A stretch of DNA of 64,000 bases from Rhizophagus irregularis (GCF_026210795.1 NC_089434.1:1426001-1490000); one strand, 5' to 3'. Numbered from the stretch's first letter, positions 1,434 to 25,868 are shown. Notes: generated by a model not told the origin, from the sequence alone. Numbers and translations are program-made.

Positions 1434-1447
1434 GGAATATTTATTTT

Positions 1448-1758
1448 TTATTCCCAAAACTTGCGGATTAAGGCAGGGACATCCTCCTCCAACCGGTCAG
1501 CGGGTTCCCAAGTGGCTTCGGTATCTGGGTATCGTTCCCACTTGACTAGATACTGGTCTTGACCCTTCCTGATGCGATGCCGGAGTATCCGCTCAGGTAC
1601 AAATCTTTCGGGTTGCCCTCTTATCACGGAGTCAGGTGGGGGATGTTCATTTTCTGGAACAATCTGCAACTCTTTTCGGGTGTACGCACATCTGGATACA
1701 CCTAGACGCCCGTGTGGTCCATCAAGAAGATACGTAGGAGGCTGTTCGGGTGAGAGGA
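1448..1758 (-). pseudogene. Outer integrase, C-terminal/chromodomain half, split off by the inner element
   Basis: FVPERILRHRIRKGQDQYLVKWERYPDTEATWEP chromodomain. The sequence rejoins 16312 across the GAGGA duplication (compare the intact site GGTGAGAGTATCATTTTTTTG at ~14540). Confidence 0.9.
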
Positions 1759-2328
1759 GTCGTCGGTCTGGATGTGGGTCTCGCTACCGCTCACCCCACC
1801 TCGGACTCACGTCCTCGCAGTACCTACTTGGGCCATAATGGCCCTGGAATCTCCCATATATACTACTACCATGGCCACAGTGGCCATGGCTGGTCACACT
1901 ACTTTCCAACTCCTTTTTTTTATCCATTTTTTCTTATATATTAAAACTACTATGACCACTATGACCACTATGACCAGACTACTAAAAAGTGGATAAAAAC
2001 GCGAATAAAGCCAAAATCAGACAGAATATCCGGTCATAGTACTGGCCACAGTTCAAAAAACTTATGATAATACTATGGCCACCTTAGTTAGCCCCTCAGG
2101 CTCCAAAACCCGATTTAAGCTATGACCACCCTTTATCTACTTACCTGAGACACCGAACTATGCCACCGAACTATGACCGCCGAACTATGACCACCGAACT
2201 ATGACCACCGAACTATGACCACCCTTTATCTACATACCTGGGACACCAAACTATGACCGCCGAACTATGACCACCGAACTATGGCCACTTTCCCCGTCAG
2301 AAAAAATAAGTAATTGAACAATGGGTAT
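1759..2328 (+). repeat. Left TIR (570 bp) of the inner element, with internal CTATGACCACCGAA-type iterons
   Basis: Reverse complement of 15736-16306, from GTCGTCGGTCTGGATG to ...AATTGAACAATGGGTAT. Confidence 0.95.
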
Positions 2329-2345
2329 ACCATAAGTAATATACA

Positions 2346-2784
2346 ATGATGAACTTACACGCAGCCACTTATCTTGCCGAAGACCTCGGACTTGATCTTG
2401 TAGACATCTATGGAATCCGTAAATGGATCCAAATGCGGGCATCGCCCCTCAACGACCCGGATATAGTAGCAGAAATAGTCAGAAACCTTCCGGCCAAAGA
2501 ATTTGGAAAGCACCTCCAAGATAAACAGACTCTGGTACAACTGTTGTAAAGCCGAGTTGTGGAAGCGATATGAGAAAGCCGAGGAGGCATACGACAGGGC
2601 AGTAGAAAAGAAGGAAAAAGCGGGGGATGCTCTTGGTCAATCATTTGAGGAAGAGGGTATTGGAAATCGTGAACTTCATGAGCTTAATTGGAAGGAGTAT
2701 CAAAAGGCTTGTAAAGAGTTAACGGACGCTAGAAAAGAGCAAATAATGGTAAGGTGGGCTCTTGAGCGGTGTGGATTTCACTAG
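2346..2784 (+). pseudogene. F-box-like protein, frameshifted near 2517
   Basis: LNDPDIVAEIVRNLPAKEFGKHL / KINRLWYNCCKAELWKR is split over ORFs 2346-2549 and 2503-2784. It is continuous in the paralogues at 17446-17961 and 25360-25695. Confidence 0.7.
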
Positions 2785-3017
2785 ATATACGTGGATTGAA
2801 AAGGGGGAAGGGAAGATTTAGAGCAGTCGTAAAGGTTCGTGGTTTATAGTTTTTTTTACCCCTAAAAGATAACCAGATATAACCGGAGGACCGCAGAACC
2901 GCAGGACCACAGGACTACAGGAGGGTAACCTGGTAGGAGTGCAGATCTTTGGAAAAAATATTTGGCAATTGAAGATTAGGTAACTATAAATTAGTACTCG
3001 ATTTGATAGAACAAAAA

Positions 3018-5507
3018 ATGGCCGCTCAAGTTCCAGCAATCTTTAACCCCAACAACCGTTTCTTCTACGATGACCTTCTTAAAAAGTGTATAGGTACACA
3101 CACAAAAGAAAGCATCAATTCAGCAATCTCAGCTTCTGTGGCTTTCATCACCACGAAGTCCGGCATGTGGATCAGAAAAAAGAAGGCTTATAATGGAAGC
3201 ATATACTTCGAGTTTGCTGCAGATCTCAAGGGAATTTCTACTAAGCACAAGGTAAGTATTCGGTCAGATGCAGGAGAAGATGATGGTATGACCACATCCA
3301 TCAAGTTAAAGGACCTTCTTATCCAAGCCTCAGTCACAAAGATCTGTTATACAGATGTAAACTTCATGCCTTATCCCCCAAACGCGCCAAAGTATAATCC
3401 TGAATTCTTCAATCTCTTTCTAGGTTTCAGGGCTCAACCCGCTGAGCACATCAAACCGAACCTAGTTAATCCAATCATTCGACATGTTCATGAGGTATGG
3501 TGTGCAGAGGACAAGCAGTTAACCACGTACATCCTCAACTGGCTTGCATTTCTGGTTCAAAATCCTGACAAAAAACCCGGTACAGCAATTATTATGCGCA
3601 GTCCCCCCAGATGTGGTAAGAATATCTTAACCGATTTTATCGGAGAACGTATTCTCGGCCGTGAAAACTTCCTCTCCACTACGCGTCTTGAAGATGTAAT
3701 GGGAAGGTTCAATGCGGCTGTTCGTGCCAAAAAACTTATCATCCTCAATGAATGTGATATGTCAGGCAAGGAATGGCACGGGGCAAACAACCGACTCAAG
3801 AGTTTAATCACCGAGCCTTACATCTCTATCGAGGAAAAGGGGATAGATGTGAAGGTTATTGATGACTTTGCTGGCTACATGATCCTCAGTAATCATGCTA
3901 TGCCAATCCGTATAGAAATGGGAGATGAAAGATTTGTAGCTCTCAACGTCTCAGCCAAATATAAGGGCAATAGAGAATACTTCGGTTCTCTCGTAAAAGT
4001 ATTAGAAAATCCGGATACAGCCAGTTCCTTCATGTCCTATTTACTTAGCCGAGACTTAACTAGCTTCAATCCCCAATCTATTCCTGATACTCAAATGAAA
4101 CAGGAGCTAATCGAAGCAAGTATTCCAAATCCCCAGCGTTTCATACAATATTACCTTGAAATGATGTGGCCCGACAATTGTGATACACTTGAAATTCCTT
4201 GTACAAATTTCTATAGCACTTACCAGAATTGGTGCAGTGAGAAGGGCGAAAACAAAACACTTAGTGATAATAAGTTTGGTATGGAGATTAAGCAATTTAT
4301 TCCTAAAACTCGCCCAAGACGTTCAGGTGCTAGAATAAACTATTACATACTAGATAAAGCAAAAATTGCGAAGAATTTTAGTAGAGTAATCCAGGAGACA
4401 CAAGACATACAGGAAGCACAGGTAGATCAAGAGGAAGTAGAGCCAGTTGTTGAGAAACCTGCTGAGGAAAAACCCGCTTCTGTCAAGAAGAAGCCTACTG
4501 AAGAAACCAAAAAGACTCCACCACCAGTACCACTTAAGCCCGATTGCTTGAAGGTAAAACCCGCACCTGTCATCAATGAGGATCCTATTCCTGAGGAATC
4601 TCCAGCTCCTATAGAGTCAGATACTGATGAACCTATAGATAGCTTCTCAGACTGTTATCTATCTGATGAGGAACCTGATCAAGAAGATGAGCCGCCTGCT
4701 GAAGAACCTGCACTTAAAGCTGTTGATGACTATGACGTCTTAGATGACTTGCTATCTGACTCAGATTTTACAACTGTGAACCCAGCTCCTGAACAACAAC
4801 CCGAGTCTCCCGCAGAATTTTCTGCATCTGTCACTAAGCCTGACCCAGAACCGGCTCCTGAAGAACAACCCGAGTCTCCCGCAGAATTTTCTGCATCTGT
4901 CACTAAGCCTGACCCAGAACCGGCTCCTAAAGAGCAACCTATCCCAGAACCTGACACAGAACTAGAAGTTGACTGGGACCCTGAACCAAAGGAAGGTACT
5001 CGAGCACACTGGGCTTGGCATGAAAGGCACCGATGGGATCGTAAGCCATGGGTCAAGAATTCAAAGGACCAGGTCTTCAATGATCTCCACAATACAGGTA
5101 AGGATTTATGGGCTAAGTACCAAGACGTGTCAGACAACTATGACTGGGAAATACTCGCGTTTGAAGTAGAGGAATGTCCCACAACACGTATTGAGGACGA
5201 GTACCAGTACTACCTTAGGGAGGTAGTAGACCGCTTCAAGGACTGGATAGAATATAATGGGTACTTACCTAAAACACCTAGCCGTAAAGAACTCGCAGAT
5301 CTAATAAGAGCATATAAGGAGGATCATGATGCCGAGATTATCCCTACCACCTCCGGTTATGAAACTATGAAGATGAATAAGGGTAAGGCACGAGAAATCC
5401 CAGAGGAACGTCCAAAAACTGATATGGAACGTGAATGGGAAGCCGCTAATGGATTTGTAGACGAGCTGGATATTGATGAGGCCTGTGATATGATTGACTC
5501 CTTTTAA
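3018..5507 (+). CDS. SF3/D5-like (primase-associated) helicase with acidic Pro/Glu-rich C-terminal region
   Basis: LNWLAFLVQNPDKKPGTAIIMRSPPRCGKN (Walker A variant), LIILNE (Walker B), ILSNH, ERFVAL, then a winged-helix-like segment. 69-bp (23-aa) tandem duplication at ~4790-4930. First ATG at 3018. Confidence 0.85.
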   Translation: MAAQVPAIFNPNNRFFYDDLLKKCIGTHTKESINSAISASVAFITTKSGMWIRKKKAYNGSIYFEFAADLKGISTKHKVSIRSDAGEDDGMTTSIKLKDLLIQASVTKICYTDVNFMPYPPNAPKYNPEFFNLFLGFRAQPAEHIKPNLVNPIIRHVHEVWCAEDKQLTTYILNWLAFLVQNPDKKPGTAIIMRSPPRCGKNILTDFIGERILGRENFLSTTRLEDVMGRFNAAVRAKKLIILNECDMSGKEWHGANNRLKSLITEPYISIEEKGIDVKVIDDFAGYMILSNHAMPIRIEMGDERFVALNVSAKYKGNREYFGSLVKVLENPDTASSFMSYLLSRDLTSFNPQSIPDTQMKQELIEASIPNPQRFIQYYLEMMWPDNCDTLEIPCTNFYSTYQNWCSEKGENKTLSDNKFGMEIKQFIPKTRPRRSGARINYYILDKAKIAKNFSRVIQETQDIQEAQVDQEEVEPVVEKPAEEKPASVKKKPTEETKKTPPPVPLKPDCLKVKPAPVINEDPIPEESPAPIESDTDEPIDSFSDCYLSDEEPDQEDEPPAEEPALKAVDDYDVLDDLLSDSDFTTVNPAPEQQPESPAEFSASVTKPDPEPAPEEQPESPAEFSASVTKPDPEPAPKEQPIPEPDTELEVDWDPEPKEGTRAHWAWHERHRWDRKPWVKNSKDQVFNDLHNTGKDLWAKYQDVSDNYDWEILAFEVEECPTTRIEDEYQYYLREVVDRFKDWIEYNGYLPKTPSRKELADLIRAYKEDHDAEIIPTTSGYETMKMNKGKAREIPEERPKTDMEREWEAANGFVDELDIDEACDMIDSF

Positions 5508-5590
5508 TAAGATAAGCGCCTCTTAGTTATCTTATATTTTTTATATAAAAAACCTATATTACAATTGAATACAATTCATAGTTATATCAA

Positions 5591-7471
5591 ATGGCCTATT
5601 CAAAAATTGCACGTGCTTTGCCTACAAGACCAGATATCAAAGAACTACAGTATTCAGGCGCAAGATTTTCTAGAGGAGCTATTGCCAGACTTGGACAGCA
5701 ACTCCAATCCCGGTATCCGACACACAAATTTCAGATTCTGCTTCCCTATGAAAACTGGAAACCCGGTGGATGGACATCAGGAAACCAACCAGCCAGCCTC
5801 TTCTCACTCTTGGACCACTACGACGAAGCACAACTACCGGATGATGCAGACCCTGATTATTTTGAACGATTCATAATTTATGTGAGAGATGCCCCACCGG
5901 TTGCAGGGGGTTGCAACGGGGAGCTAAATGATTGCCTGTATGAATGCCTGAAATATATCTACGGCACATTCTCTAAAATGCCAAAGTCAATCAAAAAGCC
6001 CGAGTATATCAAAAAGGCATTAGGTCTCAATCGTGATGCTCCAGTTCCAGTCTCATATATGGATAAGGTTGAACAACTTGCAGGAAGCCTTGCACTTAAT
6101 ATTGTAGGGGATTCCACTCGAATTTCCAAGAGCAAATCTGACAGACGTGCAACACTTATCCTGTCTGAAGGCCACTACTCTCTTGCACTGAATCCCGGAA
6201 GACTCCACCCTAGCAAATTAGATAGAAAACAAAAGTCTCCCTTTGTTTATCGTGAAGATGGGGTTAATAATGTAGTAACAATATACAATGGTAAGACAGT
6301 TAAGTCTCTTACAGTTGGACAGTTTCAGAAAGGTAAGAACTCTGATAGTTACTCCTTCATCCCTATCGAGAAGAATTGTAAAACTGGAATATATGAAACA
6401 CTTGAGGAAACATACCAGAGGATCCATGAAGAGCGGGATTCCTTCCTACAGGCTACAAAGAAGTTCGGTCTAGGAATCGACTTATCTTACCACAACTGGT
6501 CGTACAAGAGAACTGCACTCTGGCTTTTTGAACGGTTTAGTGTAGGGGTTCCAGCCAATGATCCTCTTGACCCAGTCGAAGCAGAGTGGATAAGTGATGC
6601 AATGATGGGAGGTCTTATCTGGGCAGACAATGAATGGAAGGGCTATGGAAGGCAATACGACGTGACAAGTTTGTATCCAAGTATTCAGCAATCAAATGCA
6701 AACTTTCCAATCCGACAAGGTAAGTTTCAAATACTCAAAGACTTTGTAGACCATAGAGGTTATGCCTTGTATGGATTATTTCGTGCTAGCTCCCAGGGAG
6801 CGCCCAAGGGCAAGGTAAGTGGTAATGACATTCTCTTCCGACAGAATAAGAGGGGAGTCTATACATTCATTGACTTACAACGAGCAAAGAAACTTGGACT
6901 CGATATACAGTTAATCCAGGATGGAAAGCCAAATGCCTTGATATATGACAGAGAAGCAAGAATTCCTGGGACTGTAATATTTGGTGAGTATGTCCACTTT
7001 CTCTTCAATATAAAGAACCAGGGTGGCGTGGCCGGTCGTGTTGCAAAGAGAGTTCTCAATACACTATGGGGAGCACTCTGCCAGAGGAAACGCAATTACA
7101 AGACACTCACCACAGATCAAACAGATCCATTCAAGTTTCCAGAAGGCCACACACTTGACTCCATCGTACCAGTAGGATCTGACCAGTGGCGATTCCAGTT
7201 CACAAACCCAGGTAGTCCCTTCAAGGGTGAGTATCCTAGGATCGCTCCATTCTTATTAGCACATGGACGGAAGACGACTTCAGAGTTATTAGAACCATAT
7301 AAGGATAAAGTACGACGCATCCATACAGATGGATTTATTCTAGAGGAACAGCCGAGTAGTCCTACACTTATCACTTGTCCAGAAAATGCATCCAAAGCAT
7401 TGAAAGCTCTCAAGTTTGAAACCGCAGGATACTGCCATGTGAAAAATGCAAACAAGGTTATCTGGACATGA
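5591..7471 (+). CDS. Family B DNA polymerase (protein-primed type, compact), possible N-terminal OTU-like domain
   Basis: MMGG...YDVTSLYPS..FP (motif A), KRVLNTLWGAL (motif B), RIHTDGF (motif C variant). The N-terminus has NDCLYECL...GHYSL. Confidence 0.85.
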   Translation: MAYSKIARALPTRPDIKELQYSGARFSRGAIARLGQQLQSRYPTHKFQILLPYENWKPGGWTSGNQPASLFSLLDHYDEAQLPDDADPDYFERFIIYVRDAPPVAGGCNGELNDCLYECLKYIYGTFSKMPKSIKKPEYIKKALGLNRDAPVPVSYMDKVEQLAGSLALNIVGDSTRISKSKSDRRATLILSEGHYSLALNPGRLHPSKLDRKQKSPFVYREDGVNNVVTIYNGKTVKSLTVGQFQKGKNSDSYSFIPIEKNCKTGIYETLEETYQRIHEERDSFLQATKKFGLGIDLSYHNWSYKRTALWLFERFSVGVPANDPLDPVEAEWISDAMMGGLIWADNEWKGYGRQYDVTSLYPSIQQSNANFPIRQGKFQILKDFVDHRGYALYGLFRASSQGAPKGKVSGNDILFRQNKRGVYTFIDLQRAKKLGLDIQLIQDGKPNALIYDREARIPGTVIFGEYVHFLFNIKNQGGVAGRVAKRVLNTLWGALCQRKRNYKTLTTDQTDPFKFPEGHTLDSIVPVGSDQWRFQFTNPGSPFKGEYPRIAPFLLAHGRKTTSELLEPYKDKVRRIHTDGFILEEQPSSPTLITCPENASKALKALKFETAGYCHVKNANKVIWT

Positions 7472-7584
7472 TTGCCAAGAATGCGGTTGGATTTACAGTA
7501 GGTATATATATTTTTTCTTGCTTGAATGTAAAGTCAATTTGAAGATTCCTATTTATTACAAAGTACAAAAAAGTATAAGGAATC

Positions 7585-8055
7585 ATGTCAACATATACCG
7601 AATTAGCAAGCATTATTAACAGCACTGACAGCATTAGTGATAAAGTTATTTATGATGCATCACACAATCAGTTCACCATTGTCTCTGATGAAACTGTCCT
7701 CAAGATTATCCGTGCATTGAAAGACACTATAGTAGTCGCATTAGTATCTGGGTTTAGCAAAACCAGCTACCTTGTCCAGGATCATGTGAAGTATATCAAG
7801 AGAATCCAGACAGCAAAGTCTCCTGTATCATATGTGAAGTTCGTGGCCAGAAAACTCTTCCCAGATAATGCAGCATATACTGCTAAGATAGCAAAGATTC
7901 GTGAATCATACAAGAATAAACAAGCTCTTTTAGACAAACTTGAGGCCCTCTTCGAGTTGTATTATAATGTAACTAAGGACTCATTAACAGGTCCCCCAAA
8001 GCGAGCTGTCACTATGAATGAGGCTGAGAAAACCTTAGCAGAACTTCTTGCATAA
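7585..8055 (+). CDS. Hypothetical protein (element-encoded, 156 aa)
   Basis: Intact ORF collinear with its neighbours, preceded by an ATTTGAAG motif; no recognisable domain. Confidence 0.6.
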   Translation: MSTYTELASIINSTDSISDKVIYDASHNQFTIVSDETVLKIIRALKDTIVVALVSGFSKTSYLVQDHVKYIKRIQTAKSPVSYVKFVARKLFPDNAAYTAKIAKIRESYKNKQALLDKLEALFELYYNVTKDSLTGPPKRAVTMNEAEKTLAELLA

Positions 8056-8148
8056 GCGGCTCCTGTACGAATTTAGTTTATATTTTTTATCCATTTGTAA
8101 TGGGCATACAGTAATTGAAGATGGCTATAGTATAAGTAACATAACATC

Positions 8149-8553
8149 ATGTTAGACCGGTTACCAGTAGAAATAGTCGAACGCATTGTCACAAAAATCC
8201 CGGATACTGACCTTATTGCAGCGAGTAAGGTAGATAGAGTGTGGTGGCAGGAAGTTCGTCGAGAGGCATATAAGAGGTGGAAAAATTATGCCACTACGAT
8301 CAGGGATGTGTACTGTGAAATCCGAGCTCTCGGAAAGCATTATATAAAGAGGGAAATTGACTGGATAACGTTTGAAGATGTAAACGACCTCTATAAAAGA
8401 TGGATAAACTGCCTTACCGAGGATCAGCTTTATATTATGGAAAAAATGCTTAGGAATGGGATGGTCGTGGACCCCCAAGAGAGGGAAACCATAGAGTATG
8501 CATTAAGTGAACAAAGATGGGGAGGCGATCCTTGGGGACTGGGAGTGGTATGA
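8149..8553 (+). CDS. F-box domain protein
   Basis: MLDRLPVEIVERIVTKIPDTDLIAASKVDRVW matches the F-box consensus (LP.EI...I...L...DL.....V.R.W). Confidence 0.8.
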   Translation: MLDRLPVEIVERIVTKIPDTDLIAASKVDRVWWQEVRREAYKRWKNYATTIRDVYCEIRALGKHYIKREIDWITFEDVNDLYKRWINCLTEDQLYIMEKMLRNGMVVDPQERETIEYALSEQRWGGDPWGLGVV

Positions 8554-8576
8554 ATGGACTAACAGGAGTAGCTTAT

Positions 8577-8785
8577 TTATCGGGTATCCTCATATTTCTT
8601 GACAAGGACTGATGACCATGTAACCTTATCATCAGGTATCCTTGCATTTTTTCGACAAGGATTGATGACCATGTAACCTTATCATCAGGTATCCTTGCAT
8701 TTTTTAATAAGGATTGATGACCATGTAACCTTGTCATCAGGTATTCTCGTATTTTTTGATAAGGACTGATGACCGTGTCACTTGG
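8577..8785 (+). repeat. ~52-53-bp tandem repeat, about 4 copies
   Basis: A(C/T)AAGGA(C/T)TGATGACCATGTAACCTT(A/G)TCATCAGGTAT recurs at 8602, 8655, 8707 and 8759 (the last copy is more diverged). Confidence 0.9.
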
Positions 8786-8839
8786 TTATTGTAAATTGAA
8801 GAAAACTATTAGGTATGTAGACACGTACAGAAAAAAGAC

Positions 8840-9421
8840 ATGTCTTACCCTTATATAGCTAACCCTATAACTGGACGTCCAATTATTATCGGTGGAGATA
8901 CCTTTAATCGAATAGTTATGGAATCCCATGATTATATTGATGGAAGGCTTGTCCGTAGACAAACTGCACCTCCACCTGAAGAGCAACCTGTATATTTAAA
9001 TACAGATACAGGACGTTATGTTCGACGTGGTACTAGAACATATTATAGACTGATTGAGAGTGACTATGAGGTAGTTGAGGATTACTACCTTGTCCATTAT
9101 GAAGAAGAGGCGCTTATAGAGGAAATCATCAATGAAACACGCTATAATGAGGAAAATCTTGATGGGCAGCGGTTAACTTTCAATGATATACAACAAATCA
9201 GGACTGCTATTCAGGCTGACCAAGATGAATATGATGATTTTATCTTACAGCAAGATACGACTAACGGAACACTTTCCTCCGGTCCTTCCGGTCGTCCACG
9301 AACTTTGGAAGACCATACCCCGAGACTTGCAGAGCTTAATATTGAGTTGTGTAGGGAATGTCTCATGCCTGTAAGCCCAAGTGACTTAACGGACAAGTTG
9401 TGCAAGGACTGCTCCGAATAG
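8840..9421 (+). CDS. NPxTGR-repeat protein (2-cysteine-adaptor-like motifs) with C-terminal CxxC...CxxC
   Basis: YIANPITGRPIIIGGDTFNRI and YLNTDTGRYVRRGTRTYYRL; C-terminal CRECLMP...LCKDC. Confidence 0.6.
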   Translation: MSYPYIANPITGRPIIIGGDTFNRIVMESHDYIDGRLVRRQTAPPPEEQPVYLNTDTGRYVRRGTRTYYRLIESDYEVVEDYYLVHYEEEALIEEIINETRYNEENLDGQRLTFNDIQQIRTAIQADQDEYDDFILQQDTTNGTLSSGPSGRPRTLEDHTPRLAELNIELCRECLMPVSPSDLTDKLCKDCSE

Positions 9422-9466
9422 TTACTTAATTTTGAATAATTCTTTTTTACATAAAGAAAGATAGCC

Positions 9467-10027
9467 ATGTCAACATCAATCGTAATAAACCAATGCCAAA
9501 ACTGTGGAGTAATCACTCCAAAAACAGCATATAGAGGATTATCCAGCGTGTTGTATAGACAGATTATAAAGAAGATTGGTGACGAGAGTGAACCTTTACA
9601 AGCCTTGGGACTTGCTAGGGATAAGTTAGTTCAGATCATTCGTCGGGGAAGTAATGTGGACTTTACACAATTGTTTACACAAAAACTGGATATGAATATT
9701 ATGGATGGAGAGCCATATGAAGATATTAGGAAGTGGCTTCTCGAACAGCTTATAGCCATAGGTTATGACAGTGGAGAAATTGCTTTATATCAATTTCTAA
9801 GGGATACATATCCAGATGGTATTGACGAGCCTTTCACTACATTCTATGAGAACTATGTAAATCATATAAGTAATCCAATGACTAAGAACTTTGCTTCTCG
9901 TGCTTTAGGAGCAATAGGGTTGAAGGCTAAGATGTTAAGGATTGACTTTGAAGGCCGTAAAAAAAGTGCTATGATTCTTAAAGCTTCTGCAGACGAATTA
10001 CTTGATATTCTCACAAGATACTATTAA
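9467..10027 (+). CDS. Hypothetical protein (N-terminal CxxC, possible winged-helix C-terminus)
   Basis: Intact 186-aa ORF; FYENYVNHISNPMTKNFASRALGAIG loosely resembles D5-associated wHTH segments. Confidence 0.55.
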   Translation: MSTSIVINQCQNCGVITPKTAYRGLSSVLYRQIIKKIGDESEPLQALGLARDKLVQIIRRGSNVDFTQLFTQKLDMNIMDGEPYEDIRKWLLEQLIAIGYDSGEIALYQFLRDTYPDGIDEPFTTFYENYVNHISNPMTKNFASRALGAIGLKAKMLRIDFEGRKKSAMILKASADELLDILTRYY

Positions 10028-11235
10028 TTCCTACTTGTAATGCTCGACGGTCCATGTGGCTCTTAGAAAAGATCTGTAGAAGGACTTCAATACCTTCTAT
10101 TATTTGTTTATTATCCAGAGGGCGACTAGACTTCAGGGCTTCATATCGGGAGAATAACTCCTTCACATTCTCAGTTTTCAGAGTTTCAGTCTTTGCAGTC
10201 TTACCCTGTACTTTTGCTAAGAAATCCTGAAAGTCAGCTCCTAGGGTCTTACCAGAGAGTCCATAAGCTTCCCGAAAGACATATTTAATCCAGGTATCTG
10301 CATTCTTGGCTAAGACACCAGGTACAAGTAAATGTTGACGTTCTTTAGGGGATGGAAATACCCGAGCAAATTCAATCAAGTGTCCACCTTTTTTTGCTTC
10401 AAATACAGCTTTCTGACCATAGGGACTAAACTTGGATCGAACTGTGATTGAACTGGGTTCAGACTGAGATCGAACTGGGTTCAAACTTGGATCAAACTGA
10501 GATTGAACTGAGATCGAACTAGGATTGAACTGAGATTGCTCTGTGATCGAACTGAGACTAGTATCCCATCTTACTCGAATGGACAGTGGATCACTTTTGG
10601 ACCGTCTAAGATCAAACACTACAAATTCACGTTGCAGAGTAAGATCATCAATTACTGGTGCTAATGACTCTGATTCTTCTGTATATAGGCGGATGATTCT
10701 CTTGGTATCTGTAAGGCTCCCATGACCTCCATGCAGTGAGATGTAGTTAACATTTTCTCGAATAGCCTTAGGAATGGCAAAGAATCTTTGGGCTACATAA
10801 ATACATGAAATATTTTTGTGTCGTCCATGTGTAAAGTAACCAGTGATGAGATCCTGGATTTTTTTAGGTGCATCCATCAGATCCTCGAAGATTACCACAG
10901 TAGCTTGAGTAGGGTCGAAGGAATCAATCTCTGGAATCTCACTATGGGTTACTGCAGTGAATGGGATCTTCTCCTCTTCGAAAAAAATCATGTACAACTG
11001 CCCACTTTGGCTCGTCAAGATATCTGCCAACTAAAAGTACTGCATCACATAGTACATACCGATTACCATCCTCCTTTGCTTTCTTGTCACCCATTAACAA
11101 ATTAATGATCATAGTTGTCTTACCTGAGTCTGAGCTACCTGCTACGGCTAATCGAAAGGGCCATGATGGAGCAAACTCATTGCCTTGTCTTGAGTCGGTC
11201 GTGTACTCGTCCAAATTGTATACATAAAGATCCAT
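10011..11235 (-). CDS. FtsK/HerA-family, poxvirus A32-like genome-packaging ATPase (one frameshift at ~10981-10987)
   Basis: Walker A LAVAGSSDSGKT in ORF 11235-10942; Walker B VVIFEDL and the A32-type FTHGRHKNISCIYVAQ in ORF 11030-10011. Removing one base from a 7-T run joins them (HDFFEEEKI). Confidence 0.85.
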
Positions 11236-11266
11236 TTGAATTTTATTCTAACTTAGTTTAAATACT

Positions 11267-12064
11267 ATGTCGACATCAACACCAATTCCAGTTTATACTC
11301 CTTCAGAACCTACTGGACCGCCTCCTGCACACTTGGTCAATGAAAAAGACGATGATGAATTAGTTAGAATACTTAAGGCTCATGCAAATTTATTGACTAC
11401 CAGGGGTCGTTTAACTGTTGATTCAGAGATACAGGAGGCAAATAATCAAATCAAACATATTATTAATATATTAATGTATCGCTGTAAAGCAAAACATGAA
11501 GAACTTGGTATTACAAAAGATTTGTTAGTTTTTGCACAAGGTAAGATAAATGCATTTGATGAAACGTTTACTAATTTAGAACGTCAATTAGTTATTATAC
11601 GTGCTGCCAATGATAATTTCATAGAAGAAAACCATAACCTGCAAAGAGATTATGATACTATGGTAGAGCTTCGTCGACGGGCTATAGGTGAACGTAATCA
11701 GGCACGACATGAACGTAATGTATTACAAGCAGATTATACTCAAGCAGTAAGGGATCGTAATGAGGCTCAAAATGCTGTGAATCGTGGTAATATCCTTTTA
11801 AATCATTGGCGGCTGAGGGCTACTCGGACTGGAGGACAACTTGTATTGGTTAATGCGCAACTTGGACAGGTTAATGCACAGCTAGCACATGCTAATAATA
11901 GGGTGCGTTTTGGGATTCAGACATTAGGAAGACTTAGGAATAGACTTTTCCAACAGATAGCTGCTCTTAGAATTCAGGTACAATGGTTTCGAATTAGACA
12001 ATTGAACCCTCCTCCACCTATATTAAACAATCCACTAGAGACGATATGGCTACCACTGCGATAG
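11267..12064 (+). CDS. Coiled-coil protein immediately upstream of, and overlapping, gag
   Basis: Heptad-rich (ERNQARHERNVLQADY...VNAQLGQVNAQL) ending in PPPPILNNP; overlaps the gag start by 19 nt. Confidence 0.7.
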   Translation: MSTSTPIPVYTPSEPTGPPPAHLVNEKDDDELVRILKAHANLLTTRGRLTVDSEIQEANNQIKHIINILMYRCKAKHEELGITKDLLVFAQGKINAFDETFTNLERQLVIIRAANDNFIEENHNLQRDYDTMVELRRRAIGERNQARHERNVLQADYTQAVRDRNEAQNAVNRGNILLNHWRLRATRTGGQLVLVNAQLGQVNAQLAHANNRVRFGIQTLGRLRNRLFQQIAALRIQVQWFRIRQLNPPPPILNNPLETIWLPLR

Positions 12065-13476
12065 GATTGCCGATTTTTGAGGGTAAAGCTACTGATGATA
12101 TTGATACATTTGTTAGGCTTTATATGGGTTATCTTGATACTATTAATCTTAACCCATACGCTGCTGGAGGGCCACCAGAGTCTTGGAAAAGAGCTATGGG
12201 TATACTTAGAAGCTGCATGGCTGGTGAAGCGGCTGAATGGTTTGATCGAGAAATTACAGGAAAAAATTGGGAACTTTCTGGTATCACTTCAAGAGGTGGA
12301 GCTAATTTAGCTGCTTTTGTAGCATTAGTAATACCAGAAGGTGCAGGAGGACCAAATGCAGGTACCTATGTAAATGGGTCTGAAGCACATGTTCATGCTA
12401 CAGATGCAGCTAATGCATTAGTAACTATTAGAGCAGCATTTATTCCTACCCATGATTTAATAGGTGGAGATAAAGCTTGGGGAAGAGCTGGTGCTCGTCC
12501 GACAGATAGAGCTGCTCCAGCTACTGCAGATGCTGGTGTTGCTGCTAATAATAATCGTTCTATAGTTTTTCCAGGTATTAAACCTAACCAGGCGCTTTAT
12601 TGGCTTAGAACACAATTTCCAACTATTTTAGATGAAAAGAAACGTATCCGTTTTAACAGTCTTTATCAGGAAAATGAGCCAGTCGATGCATTTTATAGAA
12701 CTGTAAAGAGAGCTGGAAAATTACTAAAACTAACTGATGATCTTATTATCGACCAGTTCTTTAGAGGTCTTTCGGCTGATAATATTTTTGAAGCAGAAAG
12801 GTTTAGTAATCTTAATCCTGATGACTTGGTTAAACATCTGAGAAATTTAGAACGGAGAAGGGCTGAAATGCGCTTGGGGTTACAAGATAGAAATCGACGA
12901 CTTCAAGCAGATTACAGTGATGTAACTCAACCTCCGTTAGGAAAACAGGAACCTGTAGTACTGACATCAAAGTCATCTGGGGTTACTCAAGAACAATTAC
13001 AAGAGTTACTTAAGGCTCAAGCTGAGGAACTTACCAAGAATTTTCAGGTGCAATTTAAACAATTACAGGCTCGGCCAGTTCGTAATCCACCAGTCTATAG
13101 ACAGCAGATTAAACCTGTTCGACCAAAACCACAGAGACGTGTTGTTCAGGATCCTCAGGATCCTGATTGGGATGATGGTTATGTAGATCATGATGTTGGT
13201 GATGACCCTGATGCTCCTGAGTGGACTTTGGATGATCATCAAAATGCTATTGATCTTATTATGGGATATAAACGTGGGACGTCTAAAATACTTACAAAAC
13301 AACTTCAGAAGGCTAAAGATAGACGTGATGATCTGGATTTGGCCCGAGCAATGAGAAACCTTGATCTTAATGATGATGCTATGGACATTGATACTGCGAG
13401 TTTTGGTGAAAAGGTAGAATTGAGAGAAAAAGATGGTGATGTCTATATGGTTCGTGTTGGGTCAAAAAAAAAGTAG
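12046..13476 (+). CDS. Retrotransposon-type Gag (capsid-like) protein
   Basis: LPIFEGKATDDIDTFV...LRSCMAGEAAEWF (CA N-terminal pattern) and FNSLYQENEPVDAFY...IIDQFFRGL (major-homology-region-like). Confidence 0.8.
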   Translation: MATTAIGLPIFEGKATDDIDTFVRLYMGYLDTINLNPYAAGGPPESWKRAMGILRSCMAGEAAEWFDREITGKNWELSGITSRGGANLAAFVALVIPEGAGGPNAGTYVNGSEAHVHATDAANALVTIRAAFIPTHDLIGGDKAWGRAGARPTDRAAPATADAGVAANNNRSIVFPGIKPNQALYWLRTQFPTILDEKKRIRFNSLYQENEPVDAFYRTVKRAGKLLKLTDDLIIDQFFRGLSADNIFEAERFSNLNPDDLVKHLRNLERRRAEMRLGLQDRNRRLQADYSDVTQPPLGKQEPVVLTSKSSGVTQEQLQELLKAQAEELTKNFQVQFKQLQARPVRNPPVYRQQIKPVRPKPQRRVVQDPQDPDWDDGYVDHDVGDDPDAPEWTLDDHQNAIDLIMGYKRGTSKILTKQLQKAKDRRDDLDLARAMRNLDLNDDAMDIDTASFGEKVELREKDGDVYMVRVGSKKK

Positions 13477-14213
13477 GTTCGAGTATCTCAAAACTTCTTA
13501 AGTCGTCCCCAAATAAGACAGCAGTTAGCTCTTCTAGTGTGCCATTGAAAGGCAAAGCAACCCCTATTAAGATTCCTATGAAAGTTACTGGTAGTAAGTC
13601 TACACCTGCAAAAGCTGTTACTAAGAATGATTTATTAAGCCTGTTAAGGTCTGCAGACTTTAGGAAATTACTCCGTGAGATTCTTCAGGAGGAGTTATTG
13701 TCTGCTAGAAAAGTCACAGAGATTCCGGAGGACCTAGTTGAGGAGGAACAAGAAGAGGATATCAGGGTAGATGATTCTATGGATATTGACATAGCTCGTT
13801 TAGAGAATACTAAAGATCTTTTAGCACTGGATGGGGAGGTTAATGGAATAGCAATTCAGTGTTTAGCAGACACTTGTGCTAATGCGTCTTTTATTCAGAG
13901 AGAAGCTGCTGAGGAATTAGGGTTGGATATCGACAAGAGTATTACATATAACATATCTGGTGCTTCAGGAACAGGTAGGACATTCGGCATGGTAAAGGGA
14001 GTGACAATCAAACTTACCCCTGATTATGCTATCACTGAGGACCTTGCAGTCTTAAGTGGTTACAAGCATAGGGAAATTGGGTTAAGCCGAACGTGTCTGA
14101 AACGTTACAATTATGATGTCCATGAATCACGCGAACATATCGCCCTTACCTGTAATGGGAAGAATGTTTTTATCCCGATAGTTCCTGATGCTAATCGAGG
14201 GGATAAAAAATAA
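13464..14213 (+). CDS. Retropepsin-like aspartic protease, -1 frame relative to gag
   Basis: VNGIAIQCLADTCANASFIQREAAEELGL...IGLSRTCLKRY. The frame is open from the A9 run at 13464-13472 to the stop at 14213. Confidence 0.8.
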   Translation, partial: KKKVGSSISKLLKSSPNKTAVSSSSVPLKGKATPIKIPMKVTGSKSTPAKAVTKNDLLSLLRSADFRKLLREILQEELLSARKVTEIPEDLVEEEQEEDIRVDDSMDIDIARLENTKDLLALDGEVNGIAIQCLADTCANASFIQREAAEELGLDIDKSITYNISGASGTGRTFGMVKGVTIKLTPDYAITEDLAVLSGYKHREIGLSRTCLKRYNYDVHESREHIALTCNGKNVFIPIVPDANRGDKK

Positions 14214-14238
14214 GACCCTTTAATTCTTCTATTTTTTT

Positions 14239-15330
14239 TTATTCCCAAAATTTGCGAATTAAGTCAGGGACATCCTCCTTCAACCGGTCAGCAGGTTCCC
14301 AAGTAGCCTCAGTGTCTGGATAGCGCTCCCACTTAACCAAATACTGGTCTTGACCTTTTCTAATGCGATGCTGAAGTATCTGCTCAGGAACAAATCTTTC
14401 AGGTTGTCCTCTTATCACAGAGTCAGGTGGAGGCTTTTCATTAATAGGAACTACTTGCAATTCCTTTCGGGTATATGCACATCTGGATACACCTAATCGA
14501 CCATGTGGTCCATTAAGGAGATATGTAGGAGGCTGTTCGGGTGAGAGTATCATTTTTTTGATTACACGAATGTTTGGGTTCCATCTTATGTCTCCTGTAC
14601 GGAATTTTCCGTGAAGTTTATTACCGAGTACTGAGATAGGTTCATTTAACTTGACTCTGACACGTGCTCCTTCAGAGAGGAGATCCGTCTTTTTTGACAC
14701 TTTGGGTGATCCTGTCGGAATGTCTGGGGGATTTCTCTGCCAGAGTTCATTTACTTTACTCACTATATTATGGAAATCTTCTGACCATTCCACGGATGTC
14801 ACCCCGGTTTTCAACTCCTGTGCTACCATTCGTTTAAGAAGGGGTTCTTGGATGGCTTGGATAGCTCTTTCAGCATAAGATTGCTGTTTATGCCTTCCTG
14901 GCTCTCCGAACCTCATCATTACCCCTAGGCTGTTCAGGAAAAAATCACGTACCTGGTCGTTAGTGAATTCTGATCCGGAGTCTGTCTCCAGTCTGTGTGT
15001 TGGTGGCTTAATACGATTTCTTCTGTAGATTTTGACAAACCCGTTTAGAACTCTATTTGCAGTCTTATCCTTTAGGGGTTCTGCATCAACTCTCTTTCCT
15101 GCAACTTCCACCACTACGAGAAAATAGTGGAATCCTTTGGGGTCAACTGGCATCTCTGCAAGATCTGCCTGATGTGTTGCATTTGGTTTCCATACAATTA
15201 CCTTTGGGCGTTCTGTTGACTTTTCCTTTAGGGGCTTTTTGTATAGGTTGTAGTGCTCTTCACCTTTTAGAATTCGTGCTGGTACTCCGGAGAGATTGTA
15301 GTACTTATAGTAATTCTCTAAGTGTGACAT
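14239..15330 (-). CDS. rve-family (retroviral-like) DDE integrase with C-terminal chromodomain
   Basis: HQADLAEM, LETDSGSEF and SYAERAIQ catalytic triad; chromodomain PEQILQHRIRKGQDQYLVKWERYPDTEATWEP. First ATG at 15330. Confidence 0.95.
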   Translation of the reverse strand: MSHLENYYKYYNLSGVPARILKGEEHYNLYKKPLKEKSTERPKVIVWKPNATHQADLAEMPVDPKGFHYFLVVVEVAGKRVDAEPLKDKTANRVLNGFVKIYRRNRIKPPTHRLETDSGSEFTNDQVRDFFLNSLGVMMRFGEPGRHKQQSYAERAIQAIQEPLLKRMVAQELKTGVTSVEWSEDFHNIVSKVNELWQRNPPDIPTGSPKVSKKTDLLSEGARVRVKLNEPISVLGNKLHGKFRTGDIRWNPNIRVIKKMILSPEQPPTYLLNGPHGRLGVSRCAYTRKELQVVPINEKPPPDSVIRGQPERFVPEQILQHRIRKGQDQYLVKWERYPDTEATWEPADRLKEDVPDLIRKFWE

Positions 15331-15374
15331 ATTACAACAAATTAAAGGAATGGTTTTAGACTTCAAATCTTAAA

Positions 15375-15696
15375 ATGACACGTTTTTACTGCCTAAAGTG
15401 CAAGAAGGAAACTGAGACGGCTAGTGAAATACAAGATATGACTACAAATGGGCGTTACCGGCTGCATGGTGACTGTGTGGTTTGTAGTATGCATAAAAAT
15501 ACTTTTACTGGAATAGACTGGGTGATCAAGAAGAAGACTAAGGAGAAAAAGAAAGAAACCGCTGCTAAGAGACAGCAGACGGCTTACAATCGGCAGTGCA
15601 AAAAACTTGGACAGAAAATCTTAGATTCTGATGACGCGTGTAAACAGTGTATTGATAAATGCCTTAAGGAGGCAAAAAAAGAGGAAGACGGATTAG
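15375..15696 (+). CDS. Small Zn-ribbon protein (DUF5679-like); an extra A near the 3' end shifts the stop
   Basis: FYCLKCKKET...TTNGRYRLHGDCVVC. The paralogue 17116-17436 ends KKRKTD*; this copy has 7 rather than 6 A at ~15674. Confidence 0.7.
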
Positions 15697-15735
15697 TACT
15701 GTCTTCTAAACTTATCTGGATATGCTCTATTCTCA

Positions 15736-16306
15736 ATACCCATTGTTCAATTACTTATTTTTTCTGACGGGGAAAGTGGCCGTAGTTCGGTGGTCGTAGT
15801 TCGGCGGTCATAGTTTGGTGTCCCAGGTATGTAGATAAAGGGTGGTCATAGTTCGGTGGTCGTAGTTCGGTGGTCGTAGTTCGGCGGTCATAGTTCGGTG
15901 GCATAGTTCGGTGTCTCAGGTAAGTAGATAAAGGGTGGTCATAGCTTAAATCGGGTTTTGGAGCCTGAGGGGCTAACTAAGGTGGCCATAGTATTATCAT
16001 AAGTTTTTTTGAACTGTGGCCAGTACTATGACCGGATATTCTGTCTGATTTTGGCTTTATTCGCGTTTTTATCCACTTTTTAGTAGTCTGGTCATAGTGG
16101 TCATAGTGGTCATAGTAGTTTTAATATATAAGAAAAAATGGATAAAAAAAAGGAGTTGGAAAGTAGTGTGACCAGCCATGGCCACTGTGGCCATGGTAGT
16201 AGTATATATGGGGGATTCCAGGGCCATTATGGCCCAAGTAGGTACTGCGAGGACGTGAGTCCGAGGTGGGGTGAGCGGTAGCGAGACCCACATCCAGACC
16301 GATGAC
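15736..16306 (-). repeat. Right TIR (571 bp) of the inner element
   Basis: Reverse complement of 1759-2328 with several CpG transitions and a 1-nt indel. Confidence 0.95.
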
Positions 16307-16311
16307 GAGGA

Positions 16312-17071
16312 TCATTTTTTTGATGACACAGATATTGGGATTCCATCTTATGTCACCTGTACGAAATTTTCCATGGAGTTTATTCCCGAGTACTGAAATA
16401 GGTTCGTCTAATTCAGAGAGAAGTTCCGTCTTTTTTGACACTTTGGGTGACCCTGTCGGAATGTCTGGGGGATTTCTCTGCCAGATTTCATCTATTTTAT
16501 TAACTACATCACGGAAATCTTCTGACCATTCCACGGATGTCACCCCGGTCTTCAACTCCTGTGCCACCATTCGTTTTAGGAGAGGTTCCTGGATTGCTTG
16601 GATGGCTCGTTCAGCGTATGATTGCTGTTTGTGTCTTCCTGGTTCGCCGAACCTCATCATCACCCCTAGGCTGTTCAGGAAAAAATCACGTACCTGATCA
16701 TTGGTGAATTCTGATCCGGAGTCTGTCTCTATTCGATGTGTTGGTGGCTTAATGCGATTTCTTCTGTAGATTTTAACAAATCCATTGAGAACCTTATTTG
16801 CGGTTTTATCCTTTAGGGGTTCTGCATCGACTTGTTTACCCGCGACTTCCACCACTACGAGGAAATAGTGGAATCCTTTGGGGTCGACTGGCATCTCTGC
16901 AAGATCTGCCTGATGTGTTGCATTTGGTTTCCATACAACTACTCGTGGACGCTCTGATGACTTCTCCTTTAGGGGCTTTTTATATAGGTTGTAGTGCTCC
17001 TCACCTTTTAGAATTCGTGCCGGTACTCTGGAGAGATTGTAGTATTTGTAGTAATTCTCTAAATGCGACAT
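16312..17071 (-). pseudogene. Outer integrase, N-terminal/catalytic half (interrupted; also a 21-nt in-frame deletion)
   Basis: Near-identical to 14239-15330 through IKKMIL, then runs into the inner TIR; lacks GARVRVK. Confidence 0.9.
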
Positions 17072-17115
17072 ATTACGACAAATTAAAGGAAAGATTTCGG
17101 ACTTCAAATCTTAAG

Positions 17116-17436
17116 ATGACACGATTTTACTGCCTAAAGTGTAAGAAGGAAACTGAGACTGCTAGTGAAATACAAGATATGACCACAAATGGCCGCTATC
17201 GTTTACATGGTGACTGTGTAGTTTGTGGGATGCATAAGAATACTTTTACTGGGATAGACTGGGTTATCAAAAAGAAAACCAAGGAGAAGAAAAAAGAAAC
17301 TGCGGATAAAAGACATCAGACGGCGTACAATCGGCAATGCAAAAAACTCGGGCAGAAAATCTTAGATTCTGATGACACGTGTAAGCAGTGTATTGATAAA
17401 TGCCTTAAGGAGGCAAAAAAGAGGAAGACGGATTAG
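17116..17436 (+). CDS. Small Zn-ribbon protein (DUF5679-like), outer element
   Basis: MTRFYCLKCKKETET...GDCVVCGMHKNTF; divergently transcribed from the integrase. Confidence 0.75.
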   Translation: MTRFYCLKCKKETETASEIQDMTTNGRYRLHGDCVVCGMHKNTFTGIDWVIKKKTKEKKKETADKRHQTAYNRQCKKLGQKILDSDDTCKQCIDKCLKEAKKRKTD

Positions 17437-17445
17437 TACCGCCTT

Positions 17446-17961
17446 CTAAAAGTATTCCTCATCATCTGAGTCATCGAGAGATACCTCTCCATCATCTGAT
17501 TCATCATCCGAGTCATCAGGAGTGCGACCTTCCTTAAGCAATTGGATGTTGTACGTTATTTGAGTCCATTTCTCCCAGTCAGACTCTTGCGTTATAAAGC
17601 CGCATCTGAGGAGTGCTCTTTCTATTACTACCATCCCTGCAAACCTGGTGTATTTTTTCTGATCGGCTTCATTGAAATTGTCAATGGCTTCTTTGTAGTA
17701 GTCTACTGCCTGTTTGTATACCTCTTCGGCTTCTTTATGCCGCTTCCACAACTCGGCTTTACAACAGTTATACCAGAGTCTGTTAATCTTGAGATGTTTT
17801 CCGAATTCTTTAACCGGAAGGTTTCTGACCATCTCTGCTACTATGTCCGGGTCATTGAGGGGTGATGCCTGAATTTGGATCCATTTACGGATTCCATAGA
17901 TGTCTACAAGATCAAGCCCGAGGTCTTCGGTAAGAGAAGTGGCGGCGTGTAAGTTTATCAT
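17446..17961 (-). CDS. F-box-like protein with acidic tail, outer element
   Basis: LNDPDIVAEMVRNLPVKEFGKHLKINRLW; C-terminal DDSDDESDD. Confidence 0.7.
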   Translation of the reverse strand: MINLHAATSLTEDLGLDLVDIYGIRKWIQIQASPLNDPDIVAEMVRNLPVKEFGKHLKINRLWYNCCKAELWKRHKEAEEVYKQAVDYYKEAIDNFNEADQKKYTRFAGMVVIERALLRCGFITQESDWEKWTQITYNIQLLKEGRTPDDSDDESDDGEVSLDDSDDEEYF

Positions 17962-17999
17962 TGTATGTTACTTATAGTTACCTAATCTTCAATTGCCGA

Positions 18000-18460
18000 A
18001 TATATTTTTTCTGACGGGGGTAAGTGGTCATAGTTCGGCTGCCATAGTTCGAGTGCCATAGTTCAGGACATAGGGAATCATACTTGGAGGGTCTAGGTGA
18101 GTATATAAAGGGTAATCATAGCGTGAATCGGGTTTTGGGGTCTGAGGGGCTGACTAAGGCTGCCATAGTATTATTATAAGATTTTTCGTACTATGGCAGA
18201 TACTATGGCAGGAGATTCTGTTTGATTTCGGCTTTATTCGCGTTTTTATTCCATTTTTAAGTAGTTTGCCATAGTTGCCATAGTTGTCATAGTAAGTTAT
18301 ATATAAGAAAAAATGTAGAAAAAAAAAAAGTGGAAAAATACCGTGGCAGACCATGGTACTGTGGCAGGTAAACCTGCCCCACGGAGGGGGGATGTAGGTA
18401 CTGCGAGGCCGTGGCCGAGGTGGGATGAGCGCTAGCGAGGCACACTACCAGCCCGACGAC
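18000..18460 (-). repeat. Right terminal region/TIR of the outer element (inner boundary undetermined)
   Basis: Collinear but diverged relative to 15736-16306; TGCCATAG iterons; ends GCCCGACGAC. Confidence 0.75.
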
Positions 18461-18679
18461 ACAAAAAATCATATTGTCTTTATTCTTATAAATTGTTTAA
18501 ATGCTGAAACTCTAATTAAATCATATAGAAAGTATTGCCGAAACCCTCTAGTTTCGGCAAGCAACCTTATTTATTAAGTAATATTAAATAAAAATTTAAA
18601 TTTTAAAAATACATTAAAGAATGTAAATTTATTTGCAATTCAGTATAGTATGATCATAAAAAATATAAATTACTCCACT

Positions 18680-22884: not shown

Positions 22885-22966
22885 CATTGTCATTGTCATT
22901 GACATTGACATTGACATTGACATTGACATTGTCATTGTCATTGTCATTGTCATTGTCATTGTCATT
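22885..22966 (+). repeat. (CATTGT/CATTGA)n hexamer microsatellite; inverted copy at ~31647-31728
   Basis: Directly visible. Confidence 0.9.
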
Positions 22967-25695: not shown

Positions 25696-25868
25696 CCATA
25701 TCATCAGGTATCCTTACATTTTTCAACAAGGATTGATGACCATGTAACTTCATCATCAGGCATTCATGAATTCTTAACATAAACTAATAAATTTTTGAAT
25801 GTTCTATCTAGTACTCTTTCAAAATTTTGTCTAATCACTAGTTTGAACTGATGAGATAGCAAATCAAG

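What the first reader, a model, noticed from the sequence alone, without database searches (positions are those of the whole stretch)
2312..15368. Shared (A/T)(A/T)TTGAA motif upstream of nearly every element gene, plus T-rich tracts after stops: a cytoplasmic-virus-like expression signature
AATTGAA, ATTTGAA or TTTTGAA lies ~28-51 nt before the ATG at 2312 (ATG 2346), 2967 (3018), 5563 (5591), 7537 (7585), 8113 (8149), 8794 (8840), 9430 (9467), 11234 (11267), minus 15368 (15330) and 25327 (25360). The genes are intronless in an intron-rich host, and several are followed by TTTTTNT-like tracts (~5537, ~7510, ~8083, ~14232). Known: the mimivirus early promoter is AAAATTGA, the yeast cytoplasmic linear plasmid UCS is ATNTGA, and the poxvirus early terminator is TTTTTNT. 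The element encodes no RNA polymerase. Inference: it may be transcribed by a helper NCLDV or linear-plasmid machinery, like a virophage.
Basis: partly seen in the sequence, partly recalled or inferred. Interest (0 to 1): 0.75.

Follow-up and report, generated by a model that had tools for sequence, protein, structure and literature searches.

The report
Fungal transposon with giant-virus promoters
A 14.5-kb virus-like transposon in a mycorrhizal fungus has the same short motif before nearly every gene and a T-run after most, resembling the signals of a giant virus found in the same species, so it is likely switched on by that virus's RNA polymerase rather than the fungus's own.

Summary
The motif belongs to a recently inserted Maverick/Polinton-like element (1759-16306, 5-bp target duplication) whose proteins match Rhizophagus irregularis records. 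WWTTGAA lies 28-51 nt before 10 of 12 real start codons (background 2.4%); the other two have WWTTAAA. It is kept in relatives at 52-60% polymerase identity, is followed by a fixed TA 25 nt on (initiator-like), and pairs with poly(T) tracts after stops that relatives avoid inside coding strands. The best match is not mimivirus, yeast plasmid or poxvirus but asfarvirus (AAAATTGAAT plus poly(T)). A published asfarvirus-like endogenous virus of this species, which encodes RNA polymerase, has AAAATTGAA 26-35 nt before an ATG in 11 of 22 scorable sites, versus 2 of 24 controls (read by eye). Against: the element never has the four-A run, a third of sites lack the G, and no transcript start was seen. 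The element has no jelly-roll capsid; it carries a Gag-like gene and an aspartic protease. Helper-virus transcription is inferred (about 0.6), not shown.

The parts
1759..16306 (.). Maverick/Polinton-like element, 14,548 bp, ends GTCGTC...GATGAC, inserted in the integrase gene of an older copy of the same family
   Evidence: inverted repeats; 5-bp duplication GAGGA at 1754-1758 and 16307-16311; empty site in DNA runs X15 and X20
1759..2328 (+). left terminal inverted repeat
   Evidence: 99% complementary to 15736-16306
15736..16306 (-). right terminal inverted repeat
2312..2318 (+). motif AATTGAA, 34 nt before gene N1 (2346; frameshifted in this copy)
2967..2973 (+). motif AATTGAA, 51 nt before the D5-like helicase (3018-5507)
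5537..5569 (+). T6 tract (5537) followed by AATTGAA (5563), 28 nt before the protein-primed DNA polymerase B (5591-7471)
   Evidence: kept at 26-30 nt in relatives
7511..7543 (+). T6 tract (7511) then ATTTGAA (7537), 48 nt before ORF156 (7585-8055)
8083..8119 (+). T6 tract (8083) then AATTGAA (8113), 36 nt before an F-box-like ORF (8149-8553)
8794..8800 (+). AATTGAA, 46 nt before ORF193 (8840-9421); three T6 tracts upstream at 8647, 8700, 8752
9430..9448 (+). TTTTGAA, 37 nt before ORF186 (9467-10027), followed by the T6 tract (9443) of the preceding gene
10011..11269 (-). A32-like packaging ATPase (start 11235, frameshifted near 10981 in this copy) with ATTTAAA at 11263, 28 nt upstream; T7 tract on its strand at 9959
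11234..11240 (+). ATTTGAA, 33 nt before coiled-coil ORF265 (11267-12064); overlaps the ATPase start codon on the other strand, in a 31-bp divergent gap
12000..13476 (+). AATTGAA at 12000 (inside ORF265), 46 nt before a Gag-like ORF (12046-13476); the site is not kept in relative L010
13440..14240 (+). aspartic protease frame overlapping the gag end at an A9 run (13464), likely reached by -1 frameshifting; T9 tract at 14232
14239..15368 (-). rve integrase with chromodomain (start 15330), ATTTGAA at 15368, 38 nt upstream; T6 tract on its strand at 14205
15340..15767 (+). AATTAAA at 15340, 35 nt before DUF5679 ORF (15375); T6 tract at 15758; 44-bp divergent gap shared with the integrase
16307..18460 (.). 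right part of the older host copy (its left part is 1-1753): integrase, DUF5679 and N1 genes, each with the motif

Best explanation
The motif, the TA 25 nt downstream of it and the T runs after the stops are likely the promoter, initiator and terminator through which the RNA polymerase of an asfarvirus-like giant virus transcribes this fungal Maverick-like element gene by gene. Shown: the motif's position, conservation and pairing with the TA; T runs after stops and their avoidance inside relatives' coding strands; no RNA polymerase gene in the element; the same core, spacing and, in one gene read through, a T8 after the stop in a published endogenous giant virus of the same species. Inferred: a viral initiation factor binds the motif, transcripts start about 21 nt past the G and stop at poly(T); the integrated element is therefore mostly silent and is expressed, copied by its own polymerase and helicase, and re-integrated when such a virus is active in the cell, as with mavirus and CroV.
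For: 10 of 12 starts in the window; 9 of 11 promoters of close relatives and, allowing G or A at position 5, 22 of 26 of distant ones versus 5.9 shuffled; TA at +25/+26 in 23 of 42 promoters and 17 of 28 with the ATG 33 nt or more away, 0 of 5000 permutations reaching it; G-to-start distance 21 nt against about 20 derived for vaccinia early promoters; sense-strand T5 runs 19 versus 65 expected in 49 kb of relatives' ORFs, host ORFs 17 versus 15; no depletion of splice-donor or AATAAA words; gaps between genes of 25-113 bp in 7 of 8 measured; ASFV core AAAATTGAAT and poly(T) terminators; pacmanvirus terminator WWTTTATTTTTTAWW; endogenous virus with RNA polymerase and capping genes in this species, AAAATTGAA before an ATG in 11 of 22 versus 2 of 24 controls, P 0.002; 151-234 reads of about 11 million, mostly partial, in four RNA runs.
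Against: The element never has the four-A run (longest 3, in 5 of 43 sites), and its own forms without that run precede an ATG in only 1 of 20 scorable sites of the endogenous virus, so that virus may not be the helper. G, invariant in poxvirus and yeast-plasmid promoters, is A in 14 of 43 sites, giving TATA-like words 25 nt before the TA. T-run avoidance is not significant in the window copy alone (11 versus 14.6) and relatives are not independent. The endogenous-virus test was by eye on 60-nt rows with a distance window fixed after the first rows were seen; the 9-mer is not in overall excess there (58 versus 34 and 87). Mavericks expanded recently in this species although four of five strains lack the large viral region. 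Low RNA is equally explained by transposon silencing. No start site was observed.
Confidence: 0.62

Rival explanations
1. The motif is a compact host RNA polymerase II core promoter (a degenerate TATA-like box with an initiator 25 nt on), and the T runs are host 3'-end signals; the element is an autonomous nuclear transposon.
For: A replaces G in 14 of 43 sites, giving AATTAAA/ATTTAAA; recent expansion in the species without a resident viral polymerase in most strains; chromodomain integrase and many nuclear copies.
Against: G in 29 of 43 sites does not fit the TBP consensus (recalled); 3- to 8-fold loss of sense T runs without loss of splice or AATAAA words; 31- and 44-bp divergent gaps holding two promoters; same core and spacing in a virus with its own polymerase. 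Host promoters could not be surveyed: no genome is held.
Confidence: 0.22
2. The signals are a relic: the element's ancestor was a helper-dependent virophage-like virus, but present copies spread by some other route and the signals merely persist.
For: Mismatch with the one candidate helper in the A run; drift of G to A in distant lineages; capsid genes replaced; nearest outside relatives are virophage-like, one with Sputnik-type capsid proteins.
Against: The motif and the TA stay at fixed distances while the flanks diverge across 52-60% protein identity, and each gene of a changing gene set carries its own cassette, which points to continuing selection.
Confidence: 0.08
3. The helper is a cytoplasmic linear plasmid (yeast pGKL2 type) or the enzyme is host RNA polymerase III, both of which could read short AT-rich promoters and, for polymerase III, stop at T runs.
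For: Such plasmids are reported in early-diverging fungi; their promoter lies 20-40 nt before the ATG; polymerase III stops at oligo(T) (noted).
Against: ATNTGA fits 3 of 12 window sites, 2 of 11 and 5 of 26 in relatives; pGKL termination uses stem-loops; the plasmid paper's main text has 0 mentions of Glomero- or Rhizophagus; polymerase III products are uncapped (recalled).
Confidence: 0.08

Closest known systems
Mavirus and endogenous mavirus-like elements of Cafeteria (PMC8547959, passages)
   Same: Integrated element with polymerase B, helicase, rve integrase and ATPase; one motif before most genes; silent until the giant virus infects.
   Different: Mavirus shares the CroV late motif TCTA and has jelly-roll capsids; here the motif is early-type, the host is a fungus, no such capsid is found, and helper dependence is untested.
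African swine fever virus early promoter and terminator (PMC8906413, PMC7163114, passages)
   Same: Core AATTGAA(T), TA initiator at a narrow distance, T runs of about 6-9 as the only 3' signal.
   Different: No AAAA at the 5' side; A for G in a third of sites; used for nearly all genes, not an early subset.
Pacmanvirus lostcity and its transpoviron (PMC11788076, passages)
   Same: A small element using asfarvirus-type promoter words; 3' motif WWTTTATTTTTTAWW resembles the element's TATATTTTTT tracts.
   Different: The transpoviron is a 7-kb episome described with a helicase and a membrane protein; this element also has a DNA polymerase and integrase and sits in chromosomes.
Mavericks/Polintons of Rhizophagus (Glomus) (PMC11952901, PMC8647823, PMC11296320, bioRxiv 2026.06.19.733378, passages)
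   Same: Very likely the same family or a sister: known, expanded in Glomerales, recently active.
   Different: In the passages seen, no promoter motif, helper link or Gag-protease pair is described.
1.5-Mb asfarvirus-like endogenous region of R. irregularis 4401 (PMC10640383, passages and supplementary sequence)
   Same: Same host species; AAAATTGAA 26-35 nt before ATGs; encodes RNA polymerase subunits and capping enzyme.
   Different: Uses the A-run form; found in one of five strains; no major capsid gene; thought to be silenced.

Membership tests
Maverick/Polinton | long terminal inverted repeats | tested here: met
   about 570 bp, 99%
Maverick/Polinton | protein-primed DNA polymerase B and rve integrase | tested here: met
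   PF03175 E 1.7e-7, PF00665 E 5e-9
Maverick/Polinton | A32-like packaging ATPase | tested here: met
   PF04665; split here, whole in L010
Maverick/Polinton | 6-bp target duplication (recalled) | tested here: not met
   5 bp in two elements
Maverick/Polinton | double jelly-roll capsid, penton and cysteine protease | tested here: not met
   no Pfam hit in any ORF; the only large unassigned ORF models as mostly helical and its best fold matches are retroelement capsid domains, all weak, E>=0.012; protease is aspartic; ORF265 and smaller ORFs were not folded
Virophage (mavirus type) | virophage major and minor capsid proteins | tested here: not met
   Pfam finds them in distant relative L003 but not in the element or L010
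Virophage (mavirus type) | promoter motif shared with a giant virus of the same host | tested here: inconclusive
   core and spacing shared (11 of 22 versus 2 of 24), A run not shared (1 of 20)
Virophage (mavirus type) | expression and replication only with the giant virus | not testable with these tools
   four RNA runs show almost no reads; their viral status is unknown
Asfarvirus-type early promoter | core AAAATTGAAT | tested here: not met
   3' seven letters match; exact AAAATTGA in 0 of 11 and 0 of 26
Asfarvirus-type early promoter | TA initiator at a fixed distance | tested here: met
   TA at +25/+26 in 23 of 42; that it is the start site is inferred
Asfarvirus-type terminator | poly(T) after genes, avoided within them | tested here: met
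   33 of 50 versus A6 5 of 50; 19 versus 65 inside ORFs
Yeast virus-like element promoter | ATNTGA 20-40 nt before ATG | tested here: not met
   3 of 12, 2 of 11, 5 of 26
Poxvirus early terminator | TTTTTNT specifically | tested here: inconclusive
   26 of 50; 11 of the 37 ORFs with a T5+ run lack it

The most novel reading that the evidence does not exclude
Glomerales Mavericks are the first satellite of a giant virus in fungi: a chimera that kept a virophage-like replication and integration module and giant-virus expression signals but swapped the jelly-roll capsid for a retrotransposon Gag and protease, is woken by asfarvirus-like infections, and whose bursts of spread record those infections or defend against them.
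Probability: 0.22. Interest if true: 0.92.

Novelty: new variant of a known kind. Interest (0 to 1): 0.74.

Why it matters
Whether Mavericks are autonomous nuclear transposons or helper-dependent viruses is open, and giant DNA viruses of fungi are known mostly from endogenous traces. A conserved promoter-initiator-terminator code shared with an asfarvirus-like virus of the same species gives a direct test (start-site mapping in strains with and without the virus) and would tie a recent transposon expansion in a major plant symbiont to viral infection. The motif could also help find further fungal giant viruses. The Gag-protease pair in place of a jelly-roll capsid is a second surprise whichever polymerase is used.

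Tried and rejected
No host genome is held, so host promoters and all family copies were not surveyed. No RNA holder was listed for the stretch. Raw RNA reads gave no start-site pile-up. The motif as a polyadenylation signal of the upstream gene was rejected: it stands before the first gene and in both divergent gaps, and at five convergent junctions (two gene pairs) there was one WWTTAAA and no WWTTGAA. AT richness alone was rejected. Distant virophage-like relatives lack the motif (2 of 44, as shuffled) and carry CTTAAAG and TATATAA instead. Whole-region counts in the endogenous virus showed no excess. The integrase scan of viral contigs gave two chromodomain-only loci, not used; prokaryote genomes gave none. 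The 50%-cluster search, cluster names and PDB sequence search did not name the polymerase's nearest kin, and no tree was built. The Atlas gave only leads under 0.9 for ORF186 and no answer for ORF265. Earlier scan findings: none. One review (PMC11426020) was not held. Loci dropped from counts: near-duplicate upstream regions (11 of 37 in the distant set) and L010, L011, L014, L022, L028 from the codon test except seven L010 genes.

Full report
What the stretch is. The motif sites lie in a 14,548-bp element at 1759-16306 with inverted repeats of about 570 bp, 99% alike, and a 5-bp duplication GAGGA. Two DNA runs hold the empty site, joined across 1753-16307 with five shared letters, so the insertion is polymorphic. 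It sits in the integrase gene of an older copy of the same family. Pfam finds a D5-like helicase, a protein-primed DNA polymerase B, an A32-like ATPase, an aspartic protease, an rve integrase with chromodomain and DUF5679, and no RNA polymerase or capsid family in 24 ORFs scanned. The closest named polymerase relatives are Rhizophagus irregularis records, with many metagenomic relatives at 52-83%. The polymerase aligns end to end with 32 relatives without an intron-sized gap. That the host is intron-rich is recalled.

The observation. All ten coordinates are exact. WWTTGAA lies 25-55 nt before 10 of 13 candidate starts, against 2.35% of random element positions, 6 of 519 other ATGs, 4.3% of host positions and 0.47 in shuffles; none lies on the opposite strand. 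The protease ATG is changed in other copies and its frame overlaps the gag end at an A run here, in the older copy and in L010, so 12 starts remain: ten with WWTTGAA, two with WWTTAAA.

Conservation. Forty loci were fetched with the polymerase alignment. In close relatives 9 of 11 promoters have WWTTGAA and AATTGAA is the top 7-mer found de novo; in distant ones (37 starts, 26 after removing near-duplicates) 9 of 26 have it against 1.1 shuffled and 22 of 26 have WWTTRAA against 5.9, though de novo the T runs rank above it there. Before the polymerase it stays 26-30 nt from the ATG. Virophage-like loci at 24-31% polymerase identity, one with Sputnik-type capsid proteins, do not have it: 2 of 44.

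Architecture. Aligned on the motif, a TA appears at +25/+26 in 23 of 42 promoters and in 17 of 28 whose ATG is 33 nt or more away; none of 5000 permutations reached this in any column; a second peak lies at +21. The window copy itself has TA at +25 in 4 and at +21 in 6 of 12. The A at +26 is 21 nt past the G. For vaccinia early promoters the passage read gives G at position 7 of 15 and a median 12 nt to the start, about 20 nt (PMC6211774). ASFV early genes have an upstream motif at a narrow distance from the start site (PMC7163114), an early TA initiator and the core AAAATTGAAT (PMC8906413). The motif is absent as WWTTGAA from five convergent junctions, so it is not a 3' signal.

3' ends. T>=6 follows the stop within 80 nt in 7 of 13 window ORFs and within 60 nt in 33 of 50 relative ORFs, against A>=6 in 5 of 50; TTTTTNT fits 26 of 50. 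Inside 49 kb of relatives' coding strands T5 runs number 19 against 65 in synonymous shuffles (polymerase 5 versus 39, other genes 14 versus 26), while splice-donor words and AATAAA are not depleted. Four host ORFs show no loss (17 versus 15); the window copy alone is not significant (11 versus 14.6). ASFV ends transcripts at poly(T), median 7; pacmanvirus has WWTTTATTTTTTAWW after 221 ORFs and a transpoviron using its promoters (PMC11788076).

A candidate helper. PMC10640383 reports a 1.5-Mb asfarvirus-like region in one of five R. irregularis strains, with both large RNA polymerase subunits and the capping enzyme, and asfarvirus-like polymerase genes in all strains (passages). Its sequence is in the supplement. 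I viewed all 58 hits of AAAATTGAA on both strands; 22 rows showed enough sequence, and 11 had an ATG 26-35 nt on. Of 50 viewed control hits (of 121; same letters rearranged) 24 were scorable and 2 had one; P 0.002. Two such ATGs, read by eye, open uninterrupted ORFs of 98 and about 224 codons, the second followed by T8; two paralogues of the first repeat the motif at 31-32 nt. But the element's own forms without the A run scored 1 of 20 (56 places viewed of 179), though one ATTTGAAT stands 37 nt before an ORF. The scoring was by eye and its window was set after the first rows.

Against. The four-A run is never present, and 14 of 43 sites have A for G; such words resemble a TATA box (recalled), 25 nt before the TA. 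Mavericks are among the most recent expansions in the species (PMC8647823) and are expanded only in Glomerales (PMC11952901), which needs frequent infection if a helper is required. Four RNA runs gave 151-234 reads of about 11 million, most only partly matching and from diverged copies, with no start pile-up; this fits dormancy and ordinary silencing alike.

Capsid. The 476-residue ORF models at pLDDT 64 as mostly helical; its best fold matches are capsid domains of PEG10, MOAP1, Ty1 and retroviruses, none better than E 0.012. With the adjacent aspartic protease, kept together in L010 and many host records, it is likely a retrotransposon-derived gag-pro pair.

Literature. The family is known as fungal Mavericks; shared promoters as the mark of helper dependence are known from mavirus. 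Searches for Polinton with Rhizophagus, with promoter and fungi, with gag, for Maverick with Glomeromycot- and virophage, and for AATTGAA with Polinton showed no paper describing this motif, the helper link or the gag-pro pair; subscription papers and repeat databases were not searchable. Fifteen papers were read as passages only, one also in its supplement; the rest were seen as listings.

Verdict. The signals are real, conserved and arranged as promoter, initiator and terminator. Reading by an asfarvirus-like polymerase is the most likely mechanism (0.62); a host polymerase II reading remains the main rival (0.22).

Noticed in passing
window 12046-14213; L010 7215-9423: Gag-like ORF followed by an aspartic protease in the -1 frame at an A run, in a DNA element with no reverse transcriptase and no jelly-roll capsid.
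   Followed up: partly
window 1-18460: The element is nested in the integrase gene of an older copy of its own family.
   Followed up: yes
window 24872-27909 within 18461-36152: A non-autonomous relative carrying a coiled-coil ORF (26681-25869, minus) lies between two 4,762-bp arms that are 100% complementary; could be another element or an assembly effect.
   Followed up: partly
window 2312-2346, 2967-3018, 8113-8149, 25327-25360: Several promoters are related cassettes, and RNA reads show copies in which the terminal repeat joins the D5 promoter directly, suggesting genes are gained with a ready-made promoter.
   Followed up: partly
window 5537-5552: The D5 terminator is a perfect palindrome of T6, ATAT and A6; relatives keep a looser form.
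   Followed up: no
L003, L037, L038: Virophage-like contigs with their own upstream motif CACTTAAAG plus TATATAA, pointing to a different helper.
   Followed up: no
window 41466-45569: Intronless 1,367-codon Helitron-like Rep/Pif1 helicase ORF, without the motif.
   Followed up: partly
window 48200-52000: Very AT-rich (12% GC) tandem array of 87- and 104-bp units.
   Followed up: no
window 10429-10571: 11-bp tandem repeat inside the ATPase C-terminal extension, which is much longer than in virophage-like ATPases.
   Followed up: no
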